The position numbers were made by a program, and so were the translations under genes. A model generated the notes under the pieces. The model did no database searches, was not told the DNA's origin, and worked only from the letters and a program-made list of their open reading frames with translations. This document shows positions 6,184-11,091 of a DNA stretch of 38,644 nucleotides, piece after piece (within the stretch, counting starts at the first letter, position 1; every line of letters begins with the position of its first letter). Where the stretch lies: the IMG/VR virus record IMGVR_UViG_2850756110_000011; one strand, written 5' to 3'. The DNA comes from a virus (Duplodnaviria; Heunggongvirae; Uroviricota; Caudoviricetes).

Positions 6184-7701
6184 ATATGACTTTCCGTGTC
6201 AAACCGGAATCTCTAATTTTGACGATTTTCTTTTTAGGTTTAATTCCCTGAGGGCGACGTAGCAGTAAATCCGACGGTGAATCACGCTGATATTCGCGGG
6301 TTGGATACCGCATTACAGAGGTCCGTCATATGAGCCTGCCACTTTCTTACGTCGCGAATCAGCTTTGTTCCGCCGTCGCCAAGCGCTAACGTGGGTTACT
6401 CTTGTACCGGGCTACGTCGCCTTCAGGGAACTGGTTATTCTCATTTTTTATTTGTGACATTGTGGTTGTTGTGCGACAGACATTGCTATTCGGCCCATAT
6501 CCCAGATAAAACCCGCCAGCTCACGTGCAACAGCAACAATTGTAATATTGACATTCTTTCCTTTGGCCTGAAGTTTTCGATACCTCTTACAGAGCCTGAG
6601 TTGAGCATCCCATGCTCTGTCAATGACGGGGCGGGGTAAATTTTCCTGCCTTTTTTGTATTGCCGGACTGATGCGTGCCGGATGACGGTAACTCCACGCT
6701 GCCTCGACCAATAGCTTTCTGGCATAGCTGTTTCCGGCTTTGGTAATGCTGCCCTGATGTCTGCTTCCACCCGATGAATATTCTGATGGCGTGATACCAA
6801 ACCATGACATCAGTTGTCGTGGATGTTCAAAACGGGTCAGATCACCCAGTTCAGAAATTAATCCAACCGCAGTAATAAACTGAATCCCTCGCATGGCTTG
6901 CAGCGCCTCTACTACCGGATACAGCCTCCATTCGGTAACGGCCTCCTTCAGGGCGGATTCCAGCCGTTCACATTGTGCCTGCCGGTCTTCTATTGTACGA
7001 CGGTGTTCGTCAAAAGCTAATTGTCGCCAGGGACTTTCGAATGAGTATTTGCTGAGCCAGCGTCGGTGTGCAGGGCCCCAATCTGCTCGCCCGACATAAT
7101 GGACCCCATGAACCAGAAGAAACGATTTCAGACGTTGCCTTGCATGCCGTAAATCATCGCGGGCAGATGCCCATGCCCGGGCCAAATCCCGGAATGCCTC
7201 ATCTTCAATGCCGGGTACGTAGACAGCAGAAAGATCTCCTGCACGCAGTGAACGCACAAGTCTGATGGCATCACGGCGATCGGTTTTAACCCGCTCCCCC
7301 GGTTTTTTCGGGATAAGTGAGGGGGCGCAGACCATGCAGTCAAAACCGGATTTCACCAGCCGACGATAAAGTCCATAACCACAGGGCCCCGCTTCATAAA
7401 CGATACTGACCTGCGATGACTTTGACCTGAGACGTTTACAAAGATTCTGAATATCAGTAGGTGATGTGCCAATTTTACCCATCAGTTCAACAGGTTCTGA
7501 ATTGATAGCATAAGCGACAGTAATCGATTCTTTGTGAACATCTAACCCGACGTACAATGTGTTATTGTTGTTCATGCTGGCCTCCGTGGTGGAAATACCG
7601 GGGGTAGCAACAGCTCACCCATGCGGCTCTGACAACGATGTTAACCCGCGTTAAATATCCCACGTTGGCCAGCATCTGTCTCACGGAAAGTCATACTGCC
7701 T
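6184..7701 (-). mobile_element. IS110-family element, copy 1 (about 1.52 kb), inserted in the right terminal repeat of IS66 #1
   Basis: Boundaries from comparison with copy 2: ends ...GATATGACTTTCCGTG / CACGGAAAGTCATACTGCCT; about 127 bp non-coding 5' of the transposase and about 265 bp 3' of it. Confidence 0.8.
6448..7575 (-). CDS. IS110-family (DEDD-type) transposase/recombinase
   Basis: 375 aa MNNNNTLYVGLDVHKESITVAYA...; no terminal IR/TSD typical of DDE elements. Confidence 0.9.
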   Translation of the reverse strand: MNNNNTLYVGLDVHKESITVAYAINSEPVELMGKIGTSPTDIQNLCKRLRSKSSQVSIVYEAGPCGYGLYRRLVKSGFDCMVCAPSLIPKKPGERVKTDRRDAIRLVRSLRAGDLSAVYVPGIEDEAFRDLARAWASARDDLRHARQRLKSFLLVHGVHYVGRADWGPAHRRWLSKYSFESPWRQLAFDEHRRTIEDRQAQCERLESALKEAVTEWRLYPVVEALQAMRGIQFITAVGLISELGDLTRFEHPRQLMSWFGITPSEYSSGGSRHQGSITKAGNSYARKLLVEAAWSYRHPARISPAIQKRQENLPRPVIDRAWDAQLRLCKRYRKLQAKGKNVNITIVAVARELAGFIWDMGRIAMSVAQQPQCHK

Positions 7702-7776
7702 TACGTATTTTGCACAGGAGTCGCTGATAAATACGCGTTAATCGAACAATGGCGACAACAATTTCCCATTGAAGCG

Positions 7777-8595
7777 ATGTGTCAGGTATTTGGTGTATCC
7801 AGGAGCGGTTATTACAACTGGGTACAGCATGAACCCTCAGACAGAAAACAAAGTGATGAGCGGCTAAAACTGGAGATTAAGGTGGCACATATCCGCACTC
7901 GCGAAACATATGGAACCCGGCGGCTCCAGACGGAGCTGGCAGAGAATGGCATCATCGTTGGTCGTGACCGACTGGCACGTCTTCGTAAGGAGCTAAGGCT
8001 ACGCTGTAAGCAGAAACGCAAGTTCAGAGCGACTACGAACCCGAACCACAATCTGCCAGTTGCGCCAAATCTGCTGAACCAGACGTTCGCTCCTACAGCA
8101 CCAAATCAGGTCTGGGTGGCGGACCTGACGTATGTTGCCACACAGGAGGGATGGTTGTACCTCGCTGGCATCAAAGATGTTTATACGTGCGAAATTGTCG
8201 GCTACGCCATGGGAGAGCGCATGACAAAAGAGCTGACAGGTAAAGCCCTGTTTATGGCGCTCAGGAGCCAGCGCCCACCTGCCGGGTTAATCCACCACTC
8301 TGATCGAGGTTCACAGTACTGCGCATACGATTACCGGGTCATACAGGAGCAGTCTGGTCTGAAAACATCAATGTCGCGTAAAGGTAACTGTTACGACAAC
8401 GCTCCGATGGAAAGCTTCTGGGGAACGCTGAAAAATGAGAGCCTGAGCCACTATCGTTTTAATAACCGGGATGAAGCCATCTCAGTAATACGGGAATACA
8501 TTGAGATTTTCTACAATCGTCAGCGTCGTCACTCTCGTCTGGGGAATATCTCCCCGGCAGCCTTCAGGGAAAAATATCATCAGATGGCTGCTTAA
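7777..8595 (+). CDS. IS600-like transposase OrfB (DDE integrase domain); frame is open upstream to about 7713 as expected for an OrfAB frameshift fusion
   Basis: MCQVFGVSRSGYYNWVQHEP...HSDRGSQYCAYDY...NCYDNAPMESFWGTLKNE... Confidence 0.85.
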   Translation: MCQVFGVSRSGYYNWVQHEPSDRKQSDERLKLEIKVAHIRTRETYGTRRLQTELAENGIIVGRDRLARLRKELRLRCKQKRKFRATTNPNHNLPVAPNLLNQTFAPTAPNQVWVADLTYVATQEGWLYLAGIKDVYTCEIVGYAMGERMTKELTGKALFMALRSQRPPAGLIHHSDRGSQYCAYDYRVIQEQSGLKTSMSRKGNCYDNAPMESFWGTLKNESLSHYRFNNRDEAISVIREYIEIFYNRQRRHSRLGNISPAAFREKYHQMAA

Positions 8596-8974
8596 AAAAA
8601 GAACAAATGGTAGTGTCCGCTATTGCCAGTACACCTCAGGCAGACCATCAGTCATACCGGGATTAAAAAATGGCTGTGGAGAATCAGAAAAATTCTCCAG
8701 CAAAAAGGTGACCCGGATTTAATACAATGTGATTACCATCTCTGCAATAAACAGTTTTTACCTGAAAAAGCTTTTACTGGCGAGCTTATTTATATGCATG
8801 GAAACATGATTGCCAGAAAGAAACGAAAATATTGCGGTGCAGCTTGTGCCGAAAAAGACAAGATGGCACACGAACTTTAATTAACTGAATATTCGAAACT
8901 GAATTTATGCCAGCAATGGGGTAATGCTGCCAACTTACTGATTTAGTGTATGATGGTGATTTTAAGGTGCTTGC

Positions 8975-9250: not shown

Positions 9251-9568
9251 CCTCGCGCATACAACCGGGCAGTGATGTGATTGTCTGCGCTGAAATGGAC
9301 GAACAGTGGGGCTACGTCGGTGCTAAATCACGTCAGCGCTGGCTGTTTTACGCGTATGACAGGATACGGAGGACGGTTGTGGCGCACGTCTTCGGTGAAC
9401 GCACTCTGGCCACACTGGAGCGTCTTCTGAGCCTGCTGTCGGCCTTTGAGGTCGTGGTATGGATGACGGATGGCTGGCCGCTGTATGAATCACGCCTGAA
9501 GGGAAAGCTGCACGTTATCAGCAAGCGTTACACTCAGCGCATTGAGCGACATAATCTGAATCTGAGAC
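9249..9568 (+). pseudogene. insB: IS1 InsB' reading frame, 3'-truncated by IS66 #2 / IS110 insertion
   Basis: ...[51 protein letters not shown]... then reads into foreign sequence after 9568. Confidence 0.6.
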
Positions 9569-9571
9569 GTA

Positions 9572-11091
9572 AGGCAGTATGACTTTCCGTGAGACAGATG
9601 CTGGCCAACGTGGGATATTTAACGCGGGTTAACATCGTTGTCAGAGCCGCATGGGTGAGCTGTTGCTACACCCCGGTATTTCCACCACGGAGGCCAGCAT
9701 GAACAACAATAACACATTGTACGTCGGGTTAGATGTTCACAAAGAATCGATTACTGTCGCTTATGCTATCAATTCAGAACCTGTTGAACTGATGGGTAAA
9801 ATTGGCACATCACCTACTGATATTCAGAATCTTTGTAAACGTCTCAGGTCAAAGTCATCGCAGGTCAGTATCGTTTATGAAGCGGGGCCCTGTGGTTATG
9901 GACTTTATCGTCGGCTGGTGAAATCCGGTTTTGACTGCATGGTCTGCGCCCCCTCACTTATCCCGAAAAAACCGGGGGAGCGGGTTAAAACCGATCGCCG
10001 TGATGCCATCAGACTTGTGCGTTCACTGCGTGCAGGAGATCTTTCTGCTGTCTACGTACCCGGCATTGAAGATGAGGCATTCCGGGATTTGGCCCGGGCA
10101 TGGGCATCTGCCCGCGATGATTTACGGCATGCAAGGCAACGTCTGAAATCGTTTCTTCTGGTTCATGGGGTCCATTATGTCGGGCGAGCAGATTGGGGCC
10201 CTGCACACCGACGCTGGCTCAGCAAATACTCATTCGAAAGTCCCTGGCGACAATTAGCTTTTGACGAACACCGTCGTACAATAGAAGACCGGCAGGCACA
10301 ATGTGAACGGCTGGAATCCGCCCTGAAGGAGGCCGTTACCGAATGGAGGCTGTATCCGGTAGTAGAGGCGCTGCAAGCCATGCGAGGGATTCAGTTTATT
10401 ACTGCGGTTGGATTAATTTCTGAACTGGGTGATCTGACCCGTTTTGAACATCCACGACAACTGATGTCATGGTTTGGTATCACGCCATCAGAATATTCAT
10501 CGGGTGGAAGCAGACATCAGGGCAGCATTACCAAAGCCGGAAACAGCTATGCCAGAAAGCTATTGGTCGAGGCAGCGTGGAGTTACCGTCATCCGGCACG
10601 CATCAGTCCGGCAATACAAAAAAGGCAGGAAAATTTACCCCGCCCCGTCATTGACAGAGCATGGGATGCTCAACTCAGGCTTTGTAAGAGGTATCGAAAA
10701 CTTCAGGCCAAAGGAAAGAATGTCAATATTACAATTGTTGCTGTTGCACGTGAGCTGGCGGGTTTTATCTGGGATATGGGCCGAATAGCAATGTCTGTCG
10801 CACAACAACCACAATGTCACAAATAAAAAATGAGAATAACCAGTTCCCTGAAGGCGACGTAGCCCGGTACAAGAGTAACCCACGTTAGCGCTTGGCGACG
10901 GCGGAACAAAGCTGATTCGCGACGTAAGAAAGTGGCAGGCTCATATGACGGACCTCTGTAATGCGGTATCCAACCCGCGAATATCAGCGTGATTCACCGT
11001 CGGATTTACTGCTACGTCGCCCTCAGGGAATTAAACCTAAAAAGAAAATCGTCAAAATTAGAGATTCCGGTTTGACACGGAAAGTCATATC
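9572..11091 (+). mobile_element. IS110-family element, copy 2 (near-identical to copy 1, opposite orientation in the window)
   Basis: Same ends as copy 1; a few substitutions between copies visible in the overlapping ORF translations. Confidence 0.8.
9699..10826 (+). CDS. IS110-family (DEDD-type) transposase/recombinase
   Basis: Same 375-aa protein as 6448-7575; the 391-aa ORF call is an upstream extension. Confidence 0.9.
   Translation: MNNNNTLYVGLDVHKESITVAYAINSEPVELMGKIGTSPTDIQNLCKRLRSKSSQVSIVYEAGPCGYGLYRRLVKSGFDCMVCAPSLIPKKPGERVKTDRRDAIRLVRSLRAGDLSAVYVPGIEDEAFRDLARAWASARDDLRHARQRLKSFLLVHGVHYVGRADWGPAHRRWLSKYSFESPWRQLAFDEHRRTIEDRQAQCERLESALKEAVTEWRLYPVVEALQAMRGIQFITAVGLISELGDLTRFEHPRQLMSWFGITPSEYSSGGSRHQGSITKAGNSYARKLLVEAAWSYRHPARISPAIQKRQENLPRPVIDRAWDAQLRLCKRYRKLQAKGKNVNITIVAVARELAGFIWDMGRIAMSVAQQPQCHK

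What the first reader, a model, noticed from the sequence alone, without database searches (positions are those of the whole stretch)
6184..11091. Two copies of an IS110-family element inserted at the same position and relative orientation inside IS66-family terminal inverted repeats
Copy 1 (6184-7701) splits the right repeat of IS66 #1; copy 2 (9572-11091) splits the left repeat of a different IS66 isoform. Both lie right after the terminal GTA of the GTAAGCG... repeat, with the transposase reading into the IS66 element. Two independent IS66 hosts hit at the same site argues for sequence-specific targeting, analogous to IS4321/IS5075 targeting Tn21-family repeats.
Basis: partly seen in the sequence, partly recalled or inferred. 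Interest (0 to 1): 0.7.

Follow-up and report, generated by a model that had tools for sequence, protein, structure and literature searches.

The report
Guide-RNA insertion sequence hits IS66 ends
Two copies of the already-named insertion sequence ISSso6 sit at exactly the same spot in the end-repeats of two different IS66-family elements because its own guide RNA specifies a short sequence (…GTA|AGCG…) that every IS66 end carries; it also uses look-alike chromosomal sites, so this is a well-explained instance of a known mechanism, not a new one.

Summary
Two near-identical ISSso6 copies (6183-7701, minus strand; 9572-11091, plus strand) each split an IS66-family terminal repeat after its first three bases (GTA), reading into the IS66. 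The hosts differ: their TnpC proteins are 63% identical.

Targeting is sequence-specific, but it is not restricted to IS66 repeats. Of 24 distinct sites gathered from Shigella and E. coli, 15 are IS66-family ends and 9 are unrelated sites sharing the motif (G/A)TA|AG|CG(C/T).

The mechanism is the known bridge/seek-RNA one. The 3' non-coding region holds a conserved ~190-nt structured RNA. Its internal loop has two variable segments that covary with the flanks of 23 related elements (0 of 20,000 permutations). ISSso6's segments specify ACGTA-AG-CGCTAA. IS66 ends (GTA-AG-CGT…) are near-cognate, and the base just outside the IS66 is C in 11 of 15 occupied ends against 5 of 19 empty ones.

ISSso6 is a catalogued IS1111-group element with a bridge RNA already predicted in its right end. 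I found no paper reporting its preference for IS66 ends. This is a new example of a known kind, of modest interest.

The parts
3672..3679 (.). Left copy of the 8-bp target duplication GTATTTTG made by IS66 #1 in an IS3-family orfA
   Evidence: Direct reading; the partner copy is at 7705-7712
3680..7704 (+). IS66-family element #1, carrying ISSso6 copy 1 in its right repeat (tnpA 3766-4185, tnpB 4173-4532, tnpC 4563-6155, 530 aa)
   Evidence: Pfam HTH_Tnp_1, TnpB_IS66 and DDE_Tnp_IS66; NCBIfam transpos_IS66
3680..3709 (+). Intact, unoccupied left repeat of IS66 #1 (GTAAGCGTAAACTGACC...). The two outside bases are TG, so only 3 of 5 left-guide matches
6156..6182 (-). Inner part of the right repeat of IS66 #1 (GGCGTCAACGGAGCACCGTATTGACGC in element orientation). 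Its first base is G where intact copies have A
6183..7701 (-). ISSso6 copy 1 (1519 bp)
6448..7575 (-). DEDD transposase gene of copy 1 (375 aa)
   Evidence: Pfam DEDD_Tnp_IS110 and Transposase_20
6242..6432 (-). Bridge/seek-RNA region of copy 1 (right-target guide 6382-6389, left-target guide 6346-6352)
   Evidence: identical to the copy 2 region
7702..7704 (-). Detached terminal GTA (TAC on the plus strand) of the right repeat of IS66 #1
7705..7712 (.). Right copy of the IS66 #1 target duplication GTATTTTG
9569..9571 (+). Detached terminal GTA of the left repeat of IS66 #2. The preceding AC (9567-9568, in an IS1 fragment) completes the 5-nt left target ACGTA
9572..11091 (+). ISSso6 copy 2 (1520 bp)
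9579..9591 (+). Left subterminal inverted repeat ATGACTTTCCGTG, preceded by the 7-nt extension AGGCAGT whose first AG is the core
   Evidence: conserved in relatives
9699..10826 (+). DEDD transposase gene of copy 2 (375 aa from the GGAGG-preceded ATG). An extra A at 9674 opens an in-frame upstream ATG at 9651, giving a 391-aa ORF
10842..11032 (+). About 190 nt of conserved structured non-coding RNA (bridge/seek RNA) closed by a 20-bp stem
   Evidence: Alignment A1; RNAalifold; single-sequence fold z = -5.1; 98.5% of cells paired and 7 compensatory pairs
10885..10892 (+). Right-target guide UUAGCGCU, complementary to top-strand AG-CGCTAA
   Evidence: Covariation with right flanks, 105/150 matches against 45.6±6.3
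10922..10928 (+). Left-target guide ACGUAAG, same sense as top-strand ACGTA-AG, so it pairs with the bottom strand
   Evidence: Covariation with left flanks, 82/125 matches against 43.9±5.2
10981..10988 (+). Conserved AUAUCAG, which equals the right-end ATATC plus core AG (donor guide), then one handshake-like base that equals the first base of the right target
   Evidence: 24 of 25 pairs
11006..11012 (+). Conserved UUACUGC, antisense to left-end GCAGTAA (putative second donor guide; imperfect register)
   Evidence: direct reading; inferred
11076..11088 (+). Right subterminal inverted repeat CACGGAAAGTCAT, followed by the 3-nt extension ATC. TTGACA at 11071-11076 is a candidate -35 for a circle-junction promoter
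   Evidence: the promoter is inferred
11092..13529 (+). Remainder of IS66 #2, of ISEc22 type (tnpA 11160-11561, tnpB 11558-11905, tnpC 11954-13492, 512 aa). The right repeat at 13500-13529 is intact and unoccupied
   Evidence: ISEc22 is the annotation on a gene of the same length and arrangement in NZ_CP026809.1; I did not compare the two proteins

Best explanation
The element is ISSso6, a catalogued IS110-family (IS1111-group) insertion sequence with a DEDD transposase. Its 3' non-coding region encodes a ~190-nt bridge/seek RNA. An internal loop of that RNA carries two short guides. [quoted passage not shown] The element is presumed to excise as a circle whose right-end/left-end junction carries the same AG core, and to recombine with the target at that AG. 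This gives a simple insertion with AG at both junctions and no duplication. IS66-family terminal repeats begin 5'-GTAAGCG(T/C)-3'. They therefore supply GTA-AG-CG, plus a T that can wobble-pair. The DNA just outside the IS66 supplies the remaining one or two left-target bases. That explains three things: the identical position, the identical orientation in two unrelated IS66 hosts, and why these two ends were hit. Both hit ends have ACGTA (5 of 5), while the other two IS66 ends in the window have TGGTA (3 of 5). What is shown here: element identity, junctions, RNA conservation and structure, guide-flank covariation, and the site catalogue. What is inferred: RNA expression, the circle intermediate, the junction promoter and the catalysis.
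For: Identity: plasmid and genome annotations name the element ISSso6; Pfam and NCBIfam place the protein with IS110 family RNA-guided transposases; Durrant et al. list ISSso6 as IS1111 group with the bridge RNA predicted in the right end. RNA: a conserved structure is shared with 22 Burkholderiales relatives. Guides: right-flank matches are 105/150 against 45.6±6.3 in permutations, and left-flank matches are 82/125 against 43.9±5.2, with 0 of 20,000 permutations reaching either. A handshake-like base matches in 24 of 25 pairs. The guide order (top-strand match 5' of bottom-strand match) is the one reported for IS1111-type seekRNAs. Sites: the central GTA-AG-CG is near-invariant across 24 distinct sites. 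Chromosomal sites nhaA-mokC and L092 match the right guide 6 of 6. C at position -4, outside the IS66, occurs in 11 of 15 occupied IS66 ends against 5 of 19 empty ones, Fisher p = 0.008.
Against: IS66 ends match the right guide poorly (3-4 of 6), the weakest agreement among the 23 elements compared. On the Shigella dysenteriae plasmid the best simple guide matches (11 of 13, three copies) are empty, while IS66 ends scoring 9-10 are occupied. The ISEc22 right repeat was never occupied (0 of 5), although by my count it scores like the often-occupied left repeat. Complementarity as I score it therefore does not fully predict usage. No expression or biochemical data exist for ISSso6 itself. The right-junction variants GG and AGG are unexplained.
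Confidence: 0.82

Rival explanations
1. IS66 ends are favoured by something beyond guide complementarity. Candidates are a structural feature of the repeat (the 530-aa-type right repeat contains the palindrome GCGTCAACGG...CCGTATTGACGC), bound IS66 transposase, or single-stranded or nicked IS66 transposition intermediates. The RNA guide would then be necessary but not the whole story.
For: On NZ_CP026809.1, 8 of about 24 IS66 ends are occupied, against 0 of about 21 other GTAAGCG sites. Fisher p = 0.003, or 0.012 if the tandem amplification is counted once. Better-scoring non-IS66 sites are empty. All five 530-aa-type right repeats seen were occupied.
Against: 9 of 24 distinct sites are not in IS66 elements, and they fit the guide well. 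My score weights all positions equally, which is surely wrong. The sample is small, comes from one plasmid, and is not phylogenetically independent.
Confidence: 0.25
2. The excess of IS66 sites is survivorship and copy number. ISSso6 inserts at any (G/A)TA|AGCG-like site, but insertions into IS ends are neutral and IS66 ends are numerous on Shigella and EIEC plasmids, so they persist and are copied around. This complements the main explanation rather than competing with it.
For: IS66 ends are near-cognate rather than optimal. Chromosomal insertions lie mostly in intergenic or already decaying regions. There is evidence of post-insertion shuffling: a 2,990-bp tandem amplification, identical left flanks with different right flanks at pSD 131818 and 128828, and L008 compared with L104.
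Against: Four empty GTAAGCGCTGGG sites that lie inside another repeated element on the same plasmid would be equally neutral. The enrichment of C at -4 shows real selection of particular IS66 ends at insertion.
Confidence: 0.4
3. The two window copies are one event duplicated: either an IS66-ISSso6 composite was copied, or flanks were exchanged by recombination between copies.
For: The copies are nearly identical. IS66 #2 lacks a target duplication (TCTGAGAC against CATTGACG), so some rearrangement has occurred near copy 2.
Against: The IS66 hosts differ (63% TnpC identity). One copy is in a right repeat and the other in a left repeat. The outer flanks differ. The IS66 #1 duplication GTATTTTG is intact around copy 1. 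The copies differ by an indel, and their right junctions differ (GG against AG).
Confidence: 0.03
4. The order of events was reversed: IS66 elements inserted next to pre-existing ISSso6 copies.
For: None beyond the adjacency.
Against: The IS66 repeat is split: GTA on one side of ISSso6 and the rest on the other. The IS66 #1 duplication flanks the whole composite.
Confidence: 0.01

Closest known systems
IS4321 / IS5075 (IS1111 group), which insert into the 38-bp terminal repeats of Tn21-family transposons (Partridge & Hall 2003; title seen in the reference list; details from my own knowledge)
   Same: DEDD transposase, subterminal inverted repeats with 7-nt and 3-nt terminal extensions, no target duplication, one fixed position and orientation inside the terminal repeat of another mobile element.
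   Different: The host is the IS66 family, not the Tn21 family. The ISSso6 target straddles the very tip of the repeat and includes 1-2 nt of outside DNA. About a third of ISSso6 sites are not in any repeat. Its transposase is only distantly related to IS1111-group prototypes.
ISEc11 and other IS1111-type elements with a seekRNA (Siddiquee et al. 2024, PMC11187229)
   Same: The long non-coding region lies downstream of tnp. The RNA carries a top-strand match 5' of a bottom-strand match, and the two overlap at the insertion point. ISEc11 occurs in the same Shigella plasmids as ISSso6.
   Different: ISEc11 is 1443 bp and targets GTGAAAATACTG. Its transposase shares only 25% identity with that of ISSso6, over the C-terminal third. 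ISSso6 appears in that paper only as a sequence in the supplement.
IS621 bridge RNA system (Durrant et al. 2024, PMC11208160; Hiraizumi et al. 2024, PMC11208158)
   Same: An internal-loop target-binding architecture: a left guide pairs with the bottom strand, a right guide with the top strand, and both include a core dinucleotide. There is a separate conserved donor-matching region and a handshake-type covarying base.
   Different: In IS621 the RNA is in the left end and the left guide lies 5' of the right guide. In ISSso6 the RNA is in the right end and the order is reversed. The core is AG here and CT in IS621. ISSso6 has long subterminal repeats.
IS1111-group elements that target REP sequences or attC sites (ISPa11, ISPpu9, ISKpn4, ISPst6)
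   Same: A short conserved sequence present in many copies per genome serves as a safe landing site.
   Different: The repeated target here is the end of another insertion sequence.

Membership tests
IS110 family (DEDD transposase elements) | Transposase with an N-terminal DEDD/RuvC-like domain and a C-terminal Transposase_20 domain | tested here: met
   PF01548 (2.4e-11) and PF02371 (8.1e-24). NCBIfam NF033542, IS110 family RNA-guided transposase, 273.9 bits against a cut-off of 140.
IS110 family (DEDD transposase elements) | Simple insertion without a multi-base target duplication, at a specific sequence in one orientation | tested here: met
   Only the AG core is shared between the two junctions, at 24 distinct sites.
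IS1111 group | Subterminal inverted repeats with short terminal extensions | tested here: met
   13-bp ATGACTTTCCGTG / CACGGAAAGTCAT, with a 7-nt left and a 3-nt right extension; conserved in relatives.
IS1111 group | The longer non-coding region and the guide RNA lie downstream of tnp, in the right end | tested here: met
   127 nt upstream against 265 nt downstream; the RNA lies at 10842-11032. Durrant et al.'s table lists ISSso6 as RE, IS1111.
IS1111 group | Transposase related over its full length to IS1111-type transposases | tested here: inconclusive
   Only 25% identity over 129 C-terminal residues to the ISEc11 transposase. About 22% identity to IS1111-group entries, and it is listed beside ISCARN28 in Siddiquee et al.'s matrix. 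ISfinder's grouping, as relayed, is IS1111.
Bridge/seek-RNA-guided recombination | A conserved structured RNA with an internal loop carrying two guides that covary with the target flanks and overlap at a core | tested here: met
   0 of 20,000 permutations reach the observed matches on either side.
Bridge/seek-RNA-guided recombination | Segments matching the element's own ends (donor recognition) | tested here: met
   AUAUCAG equals the right end plus core and is invariant. UUACUGC is antisense to the left end with a 1-nt register problem. A handshake-like base matches in 24 of 25 pairs.
Bridge/seek-RNA-guided recombination | The RNA is expressed, binds the transposase and is required for transposition | not testable with these tools
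   No expression or biochemical data are available here. No Rfam family matches the region.
IS66 family (the two hosts) | Three-gene layout tnpA-tnpB-tnpC with a DDE_Tnp_IS66 transposase | tested here: met
   for both elements.
IS66 family (the two hosts) | Terminal repeats starting GTAAGCG, and an 8-bp target duplication | tested here: met
   All four ends start GTAAGCG once ISSso6 is removed (copy 1's right junction reads GTAGGCG). IS66 #1 has the duplication GTATTTTG; IS66 #2 has none.
Elements dedicated to the terminal repeats of one transposon family (IS4321/IS5075-like lifestyle) | Insertions found essentially only inside those repeats | tested here: not met
   9 of 24 distinct sites lie outside any IS66 element.

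The most novel reading that the evidence does not exclude
The ISSso6 lineage may be a habitual parasite of other mobile elements. Its guides would be kept matched to the most conserved DNA of other insertion sequences: IS66 repeat tips in enterobacteria, and in its Burkholderiales relatives the GIS^K(R/Q)G codons of IS110-family transposase genes and IS630- and IS701-type genes. The use of IS66 ends would exceed what guide complementarity predicts, which would imply an extra determinant such as repeat structure or IS66 transposition intermediates. Such a habit would give safe, horizontally travelling landing pads. It could also explain how a Burkholderiales-type element became established in Shigella and EIEC.
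Probability: 0.25. Interest if true: 0.55.

Novelty: new member of a known kind. Interest (0 to 1): 0.33.

Why it matters
It gives a concrete, checkable target rule for a named but uncharacterised Shigella/EIEC element: ACGTA-AG-CG(C/T)TAA. It explains why ISSso6 and IS66-type elements appear as 'connected' insertion sequences that confuse short-read IS mapping. It adds a second case, after IS4321/IS5075, of an IS1111-type element landing in the end-repeats of another transposon family, now with an RNA-guide explanation. It also supplies a naturally diversified set of 23 guide-target pairs with an AG core and reversed guide order, which could be useful for comparing bridge-RNA designs. It does not change the understanding of the mechanism.

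Tried and rejected
- **ISEc11:** I first suspected the element was ISEc11. It is not: ISEc11 is 1443 bp, has a different target, and shares only 25% protein identity.
- **E. coli hits covering only bases 1-1335 at 95.6%:** these looked like a naturally re-targeted variant. They are a truncated, frameshifted remnant cut by another IS.
- **The 98.4% variant (L107/L108):** it is also decayed. It carries one guide change (UUAGCGCC), but its site does not fit, so it is uninformative.
- **Rfam scan of 3300-14000:** nothing matched the RNA. 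There was only a sub-threshold AfaR hit over the IS66 #1 left repeat.
- **Source of the window:** no plasmid record holds the 3300-14000 stretch contiguously. The remainder is a P2-like prophage, so the window is probably chromosomal.
- **Second base after AUAUCAG as a further handshake position:** no covariation (6 of 25 against 8.0 expected).
- **Uniform 13-position match score:** it does not rank occupied sites above empty ones on the Shigella dysenteriae plasmid.
- **Literature:** searches for ISSso6, ISSso4, and IS66 with IS110/IS1111 found no statement of this target preference.
- **Internal promoter for the RNA:** the consensus scan found no convincing one.

Full report
**What is in the window**

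The repeat finder reports two inverted, essentially identical arms, 6178-7706 and 9567-11096. Each holds a 1.52-kb element with one 375-aa gene. Copy 1 has tnp at 6448-7575 on the minus strand; copy 2 has tnp at 9699-10826 on the plus strand. The protein carries the DEDD_Tnp_IS110 and Transposase_20 domains. It scores 274 bits on NCBIfam 'IS110 family RNA-guided transposase'.

Megablast against plasmids and complete E. coli genomes finds the element at 99.9-100% identity, annotated as ISSso6. It occurs in 68 plasmids, mostly Shigella invasion plasmids, and in 126 of 5,426 E. coli genomes.

The element has 13-bp subterminal inverted repeats (ATGACTTTCCGTG / CACGGAAAGTCAT). They are preceded by a 7-nt extension and followed by a 3-nt extension. 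It has a 127-nt leader and a 265-nt trailer. This is the IS1111-type layout.

**The hosts**

Both flanking elements have the IS66 three-gene layout. Their transposases are 63% identical.
- IS66 #1 spans 3680-7704. It sits inside an IS3-family element and is bracketed by its own 8-bp duplication GTATTTTG (3672-3679 and 7705-7712). It therefore arrived whole and was split afterwards.
- IS66 #2 spans 9569-13529. A gene of the same length and arrangement is annotated ISEc22 family in a Shigella dysenteriae plasmid. It abuts a truncated IS1 and has no duplication.

In element orientation the junctions are ...aaaatacGTA|ISSso6|GGCGTCAACGG... and ...ctgagacGTA|ISSso6|AGCGTACAGCC....
- Copy 1 starts at 6183, not 6184.
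- Its right junction has GG where intact copies of that repeat have AG.

**Is the site specific, and is it IS66-specific?**

I collected other copies from three sources:
- exact-protein look-up;
- a whole Shigella dysenteriae plasmid, NZ_CP026809.1, with nine copies;
- single-copy E. coli chromosomes.

After merging repeats of the same locus there are 24 distinct sites.
- 15 are IS66-family repeat tips. They comprise the ISEc22 left repeat, both repeats of the 530-aa type, an ISSfl3 left repeat, and another IS66-like repeat. All are at the same position and in the same orientation.
- 9 are not in IS66 elements. These include nhaA-mokC (CTGTA|AG|CGCTAA), nupG-speC (ATATA|AG|CGCTAT), tktB (CCGTA|AG|CGTTAA) and a bgl-like gene (TCGTA|AA|CGCTAA).

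Across all 24 sites the central GTA-AG-CG is almost invariant. Targeting is therefore sequence-specific, but IS66 repeats are not the only target.

**Mechanism**

A protein-based scan of one genome per species returned 77 relatives at 70-81% identity, nearly all of them in Burkholderiales. Their ends are conserved (AGNCAGTATGACT...AGTCATATC), their flanks differ, and the right flank almost always starts AG or AA.

Aligning the 3' non-coding regions shows a ~190-nt scaffold that is 86% identical on average, interrupted by two hypervariable blocks. RNAalifold places those blocks on the two sides of one internal loop between conserved stems, inside a 20-bp closing stem. Of the base-pair cells, 98.5% are standard pairs. 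Seven pairs show compensatory changes, and no shuffle in 500 reaches the observed covariation score. The ISSso6 sequence alone folds with z = -5.1.

The two blocks behave as guides:
- The 5' block is the reverse complement of the core plus right flank.
- The 3' block is identical to the left flank plus core.

Over 25 element-site pairs the right side matches at 105 of 150 positions, against 45.6±6.3 when sites are permuted. The left side matches at 82 of 125, against 43.9±5.2. No permutation in 20,000 reaches either value.

This is the arrangement described for bridge RNAs: the left guide pairs with the bottom strand, the right guide with the top strand, and both include the core. The guide order is the one described for IS1111-type seekRNAs.

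Downstream lies an invariant AUAUCAG, which equals the right end plus core. The next base equals the first base of the right target in 24 of 25 pairs. That resembles the handshake guides of IS621. A conserved UUACUGC is antisense to the left end, in imperfect register.

For ISSso6 the guides are UUAGCGCU (10885-10892) and ACGUAAG (10922-10928). The specified target is ACGTA-AG-CGCTAA.

**Why IS66 ends**

IS66-family repeats begin GTAAGCG(T/C). They provide three of the five left-target bases, the core, and CG. A following T can pair with the guide's G as a wobble (my inference). The other two left-target bases come from outside the IS66.
- Both occupied ends in the window have ACGTA. The two empty IS66 ends have TGGTA.
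- Across the data, the base at -4 is C in 11 of 15 occupied IS66 ends, against 5 of 19 empty ones (Fisher p = 0.008).

This supports guide reading beyond the IS66 tip. It also supports independent insertion after each IS66 had reached its location.

IS66 ends are nonetheless near-cognate rather than optimal. Their mean right-guide match is 3.5 of 6, against 4.6 of 6 for chromosomal sites.

**What does not fit**

- On the plasmid with ISSso6 removed in silico, three copies of an 11-of-13 match are empty, while IS66 ends scoring 9-10 are filled.
- Among sites containing GTAAGCG, 8 of about 24 IS66 ends are occupied against 0 of about 21 others. The p value is 0.003, or 0.012 if a 2,990-bp tandem amplification is counted once.
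- The ISEc22 right repeat was never occupied (0 of 5).

Three explanations remain open: unequal weighting of positions, survivorship and copy number, or an additional IS66-related determinant.

The right junctions GG (window copy 1; L105/L106) and AGG (L096; plasmid position 153735) are also unexplained.

**Comparison with what is known**

ISSso6 is an ISfinder element. Durrant et al.'s supplementary table already lists it as IS1111 group with a bridge RNA predicted in the right end. Siddiquee et al. include only its protein sequence.

The transposase is distant from IS1111 prototypes, with 25% identity to ISEc11 over the C-terminal third. Membership of the IS1111 group therefore rests on architecture and on ISfinder's assignment.

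The closest behavioural analogue is IS4321/IS5075 in Tn21-family repeats. ISSso6 fails the 'repeats only' criterion.

I found no paper stating that ISSso6 prefers IS66 ends. One preprint notes that ISSso4 and ISSso6 in Shigella sonnei are mostly 'connected' insertion sequences, without explaining why.

**Verdict**

The feature is real and the site choice is specific. The mechanism is the established RNA-guided one. This is a new example of a known kind and is modestly interesting.

Noticed in passing
L012-L088 (Burkholderiales loci); for example L063, L017, L018, L033, L075: The nearest relatives of ISSso6 (70-81% protein identity) are nearly all in Paraburkholderia, Caballeronia, Cupriavidus or Variovorax. 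Many sit inside other insertion sequences. L017 and L063 interrupt the GIS^K(R/Q)G codons of IS110-family transposase genes (confirmed with Pfam); about eight more do so by sequence. L018 is in an IS630-type DDE_3 gene, L033 in a DDE_5 gene, and L075 is next to the start of an IS110-family gene.
   Followed up: partly
window 6181-6182; L105/L106; L096; NZ_CP026809.1 position 153735: The right junction is heterogeneous. It reads ATC|GG|CGTC in window copy 1 and, with a different left flank, in two E. coli chromosomes. It reads ATC|AGG|CGTA (an extra G) in two other copies. The left junctions are always canonical.
   Followed up: partly
L006, L007, L093, L096: A full ISSso6 is followed, or preceded, by a partial ISSso6 fragment. 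In L006 the fragment begins inside the DNA encoding the right-target guide (equivalent to window 10887). That DNA (cacgtt|AG|CGCTTG) is itself a 10-of-13 match to the element's own target, which suggests self-insertion followed by deletion.
   Followed up: partly
window 9674 compared with 7600-7603: The two copies differ by one A in the 5' leader. The extra A in copy 2 puts an upstream ATG (9651) in frame, giving a 391-aa ORF. Some public assemblies annotate this form (21 contigs were read).
   Followed up: yes
window 3666-3758, minus strand: A sub-threshold Rfam hit to the AfaR small RNA (43 bits; gathering score 100) overlaps the left repeat of IS66 #1. That part of the AfaR model probably resembles an IS66 end.
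   Followed up: no
window 14000-38644: The rest of the window is a P2-family prophage (terminase, capsid, tail sheath, tape measure), about 96% identical to E. coli records. The IS cluster lies at its edge, and the right flank of IS66 #2 runs into it.
   Followed up: partly
window 8920-9568 and 26608-26907: An IS1 fragment is truncated by IS66 #2, and another IS1 segment lies 17.7 kb away (99% identical over 300 nt). In L003 the same ISEc22::ISSso6 composite meets IS1 12 bp further upstream than in the window.
   Followed up: no
NZ_CP026809.1 (L101), record 127.5-134.7 kb and 106.8-110.9 kb: Three ISSso6 copies are spaced exactly 2,990 bp apart, a tandem amplification. An ISEc11 copy sits inside the same ISSfl3 element whose left repeat carries ISSso6, so one IS66-family element hosts two different IS110-family elements.
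   Followed up: no
L104 compared with L008 (nhaA side): The left flank is the same. The right flank is chromosomal AGCGCTAACGGG, a perfect 6-of-6 guide match, in L104. In L008 it is an IS66 left repeat. This indicates a flank exchange by recombination between ISSso6 copies.
   Followed up: partly
window 11071-11091 joined to 9572-9584 (hypothetical circle junction): Joining the right end to the left end would create TTGACA-17 nt-CAGTAT. The TTGACA and the CAGTAT are conserved in nearly all relatives. This is a candidate junction promoter of the kind described for ISEc11.
   Followed up: no
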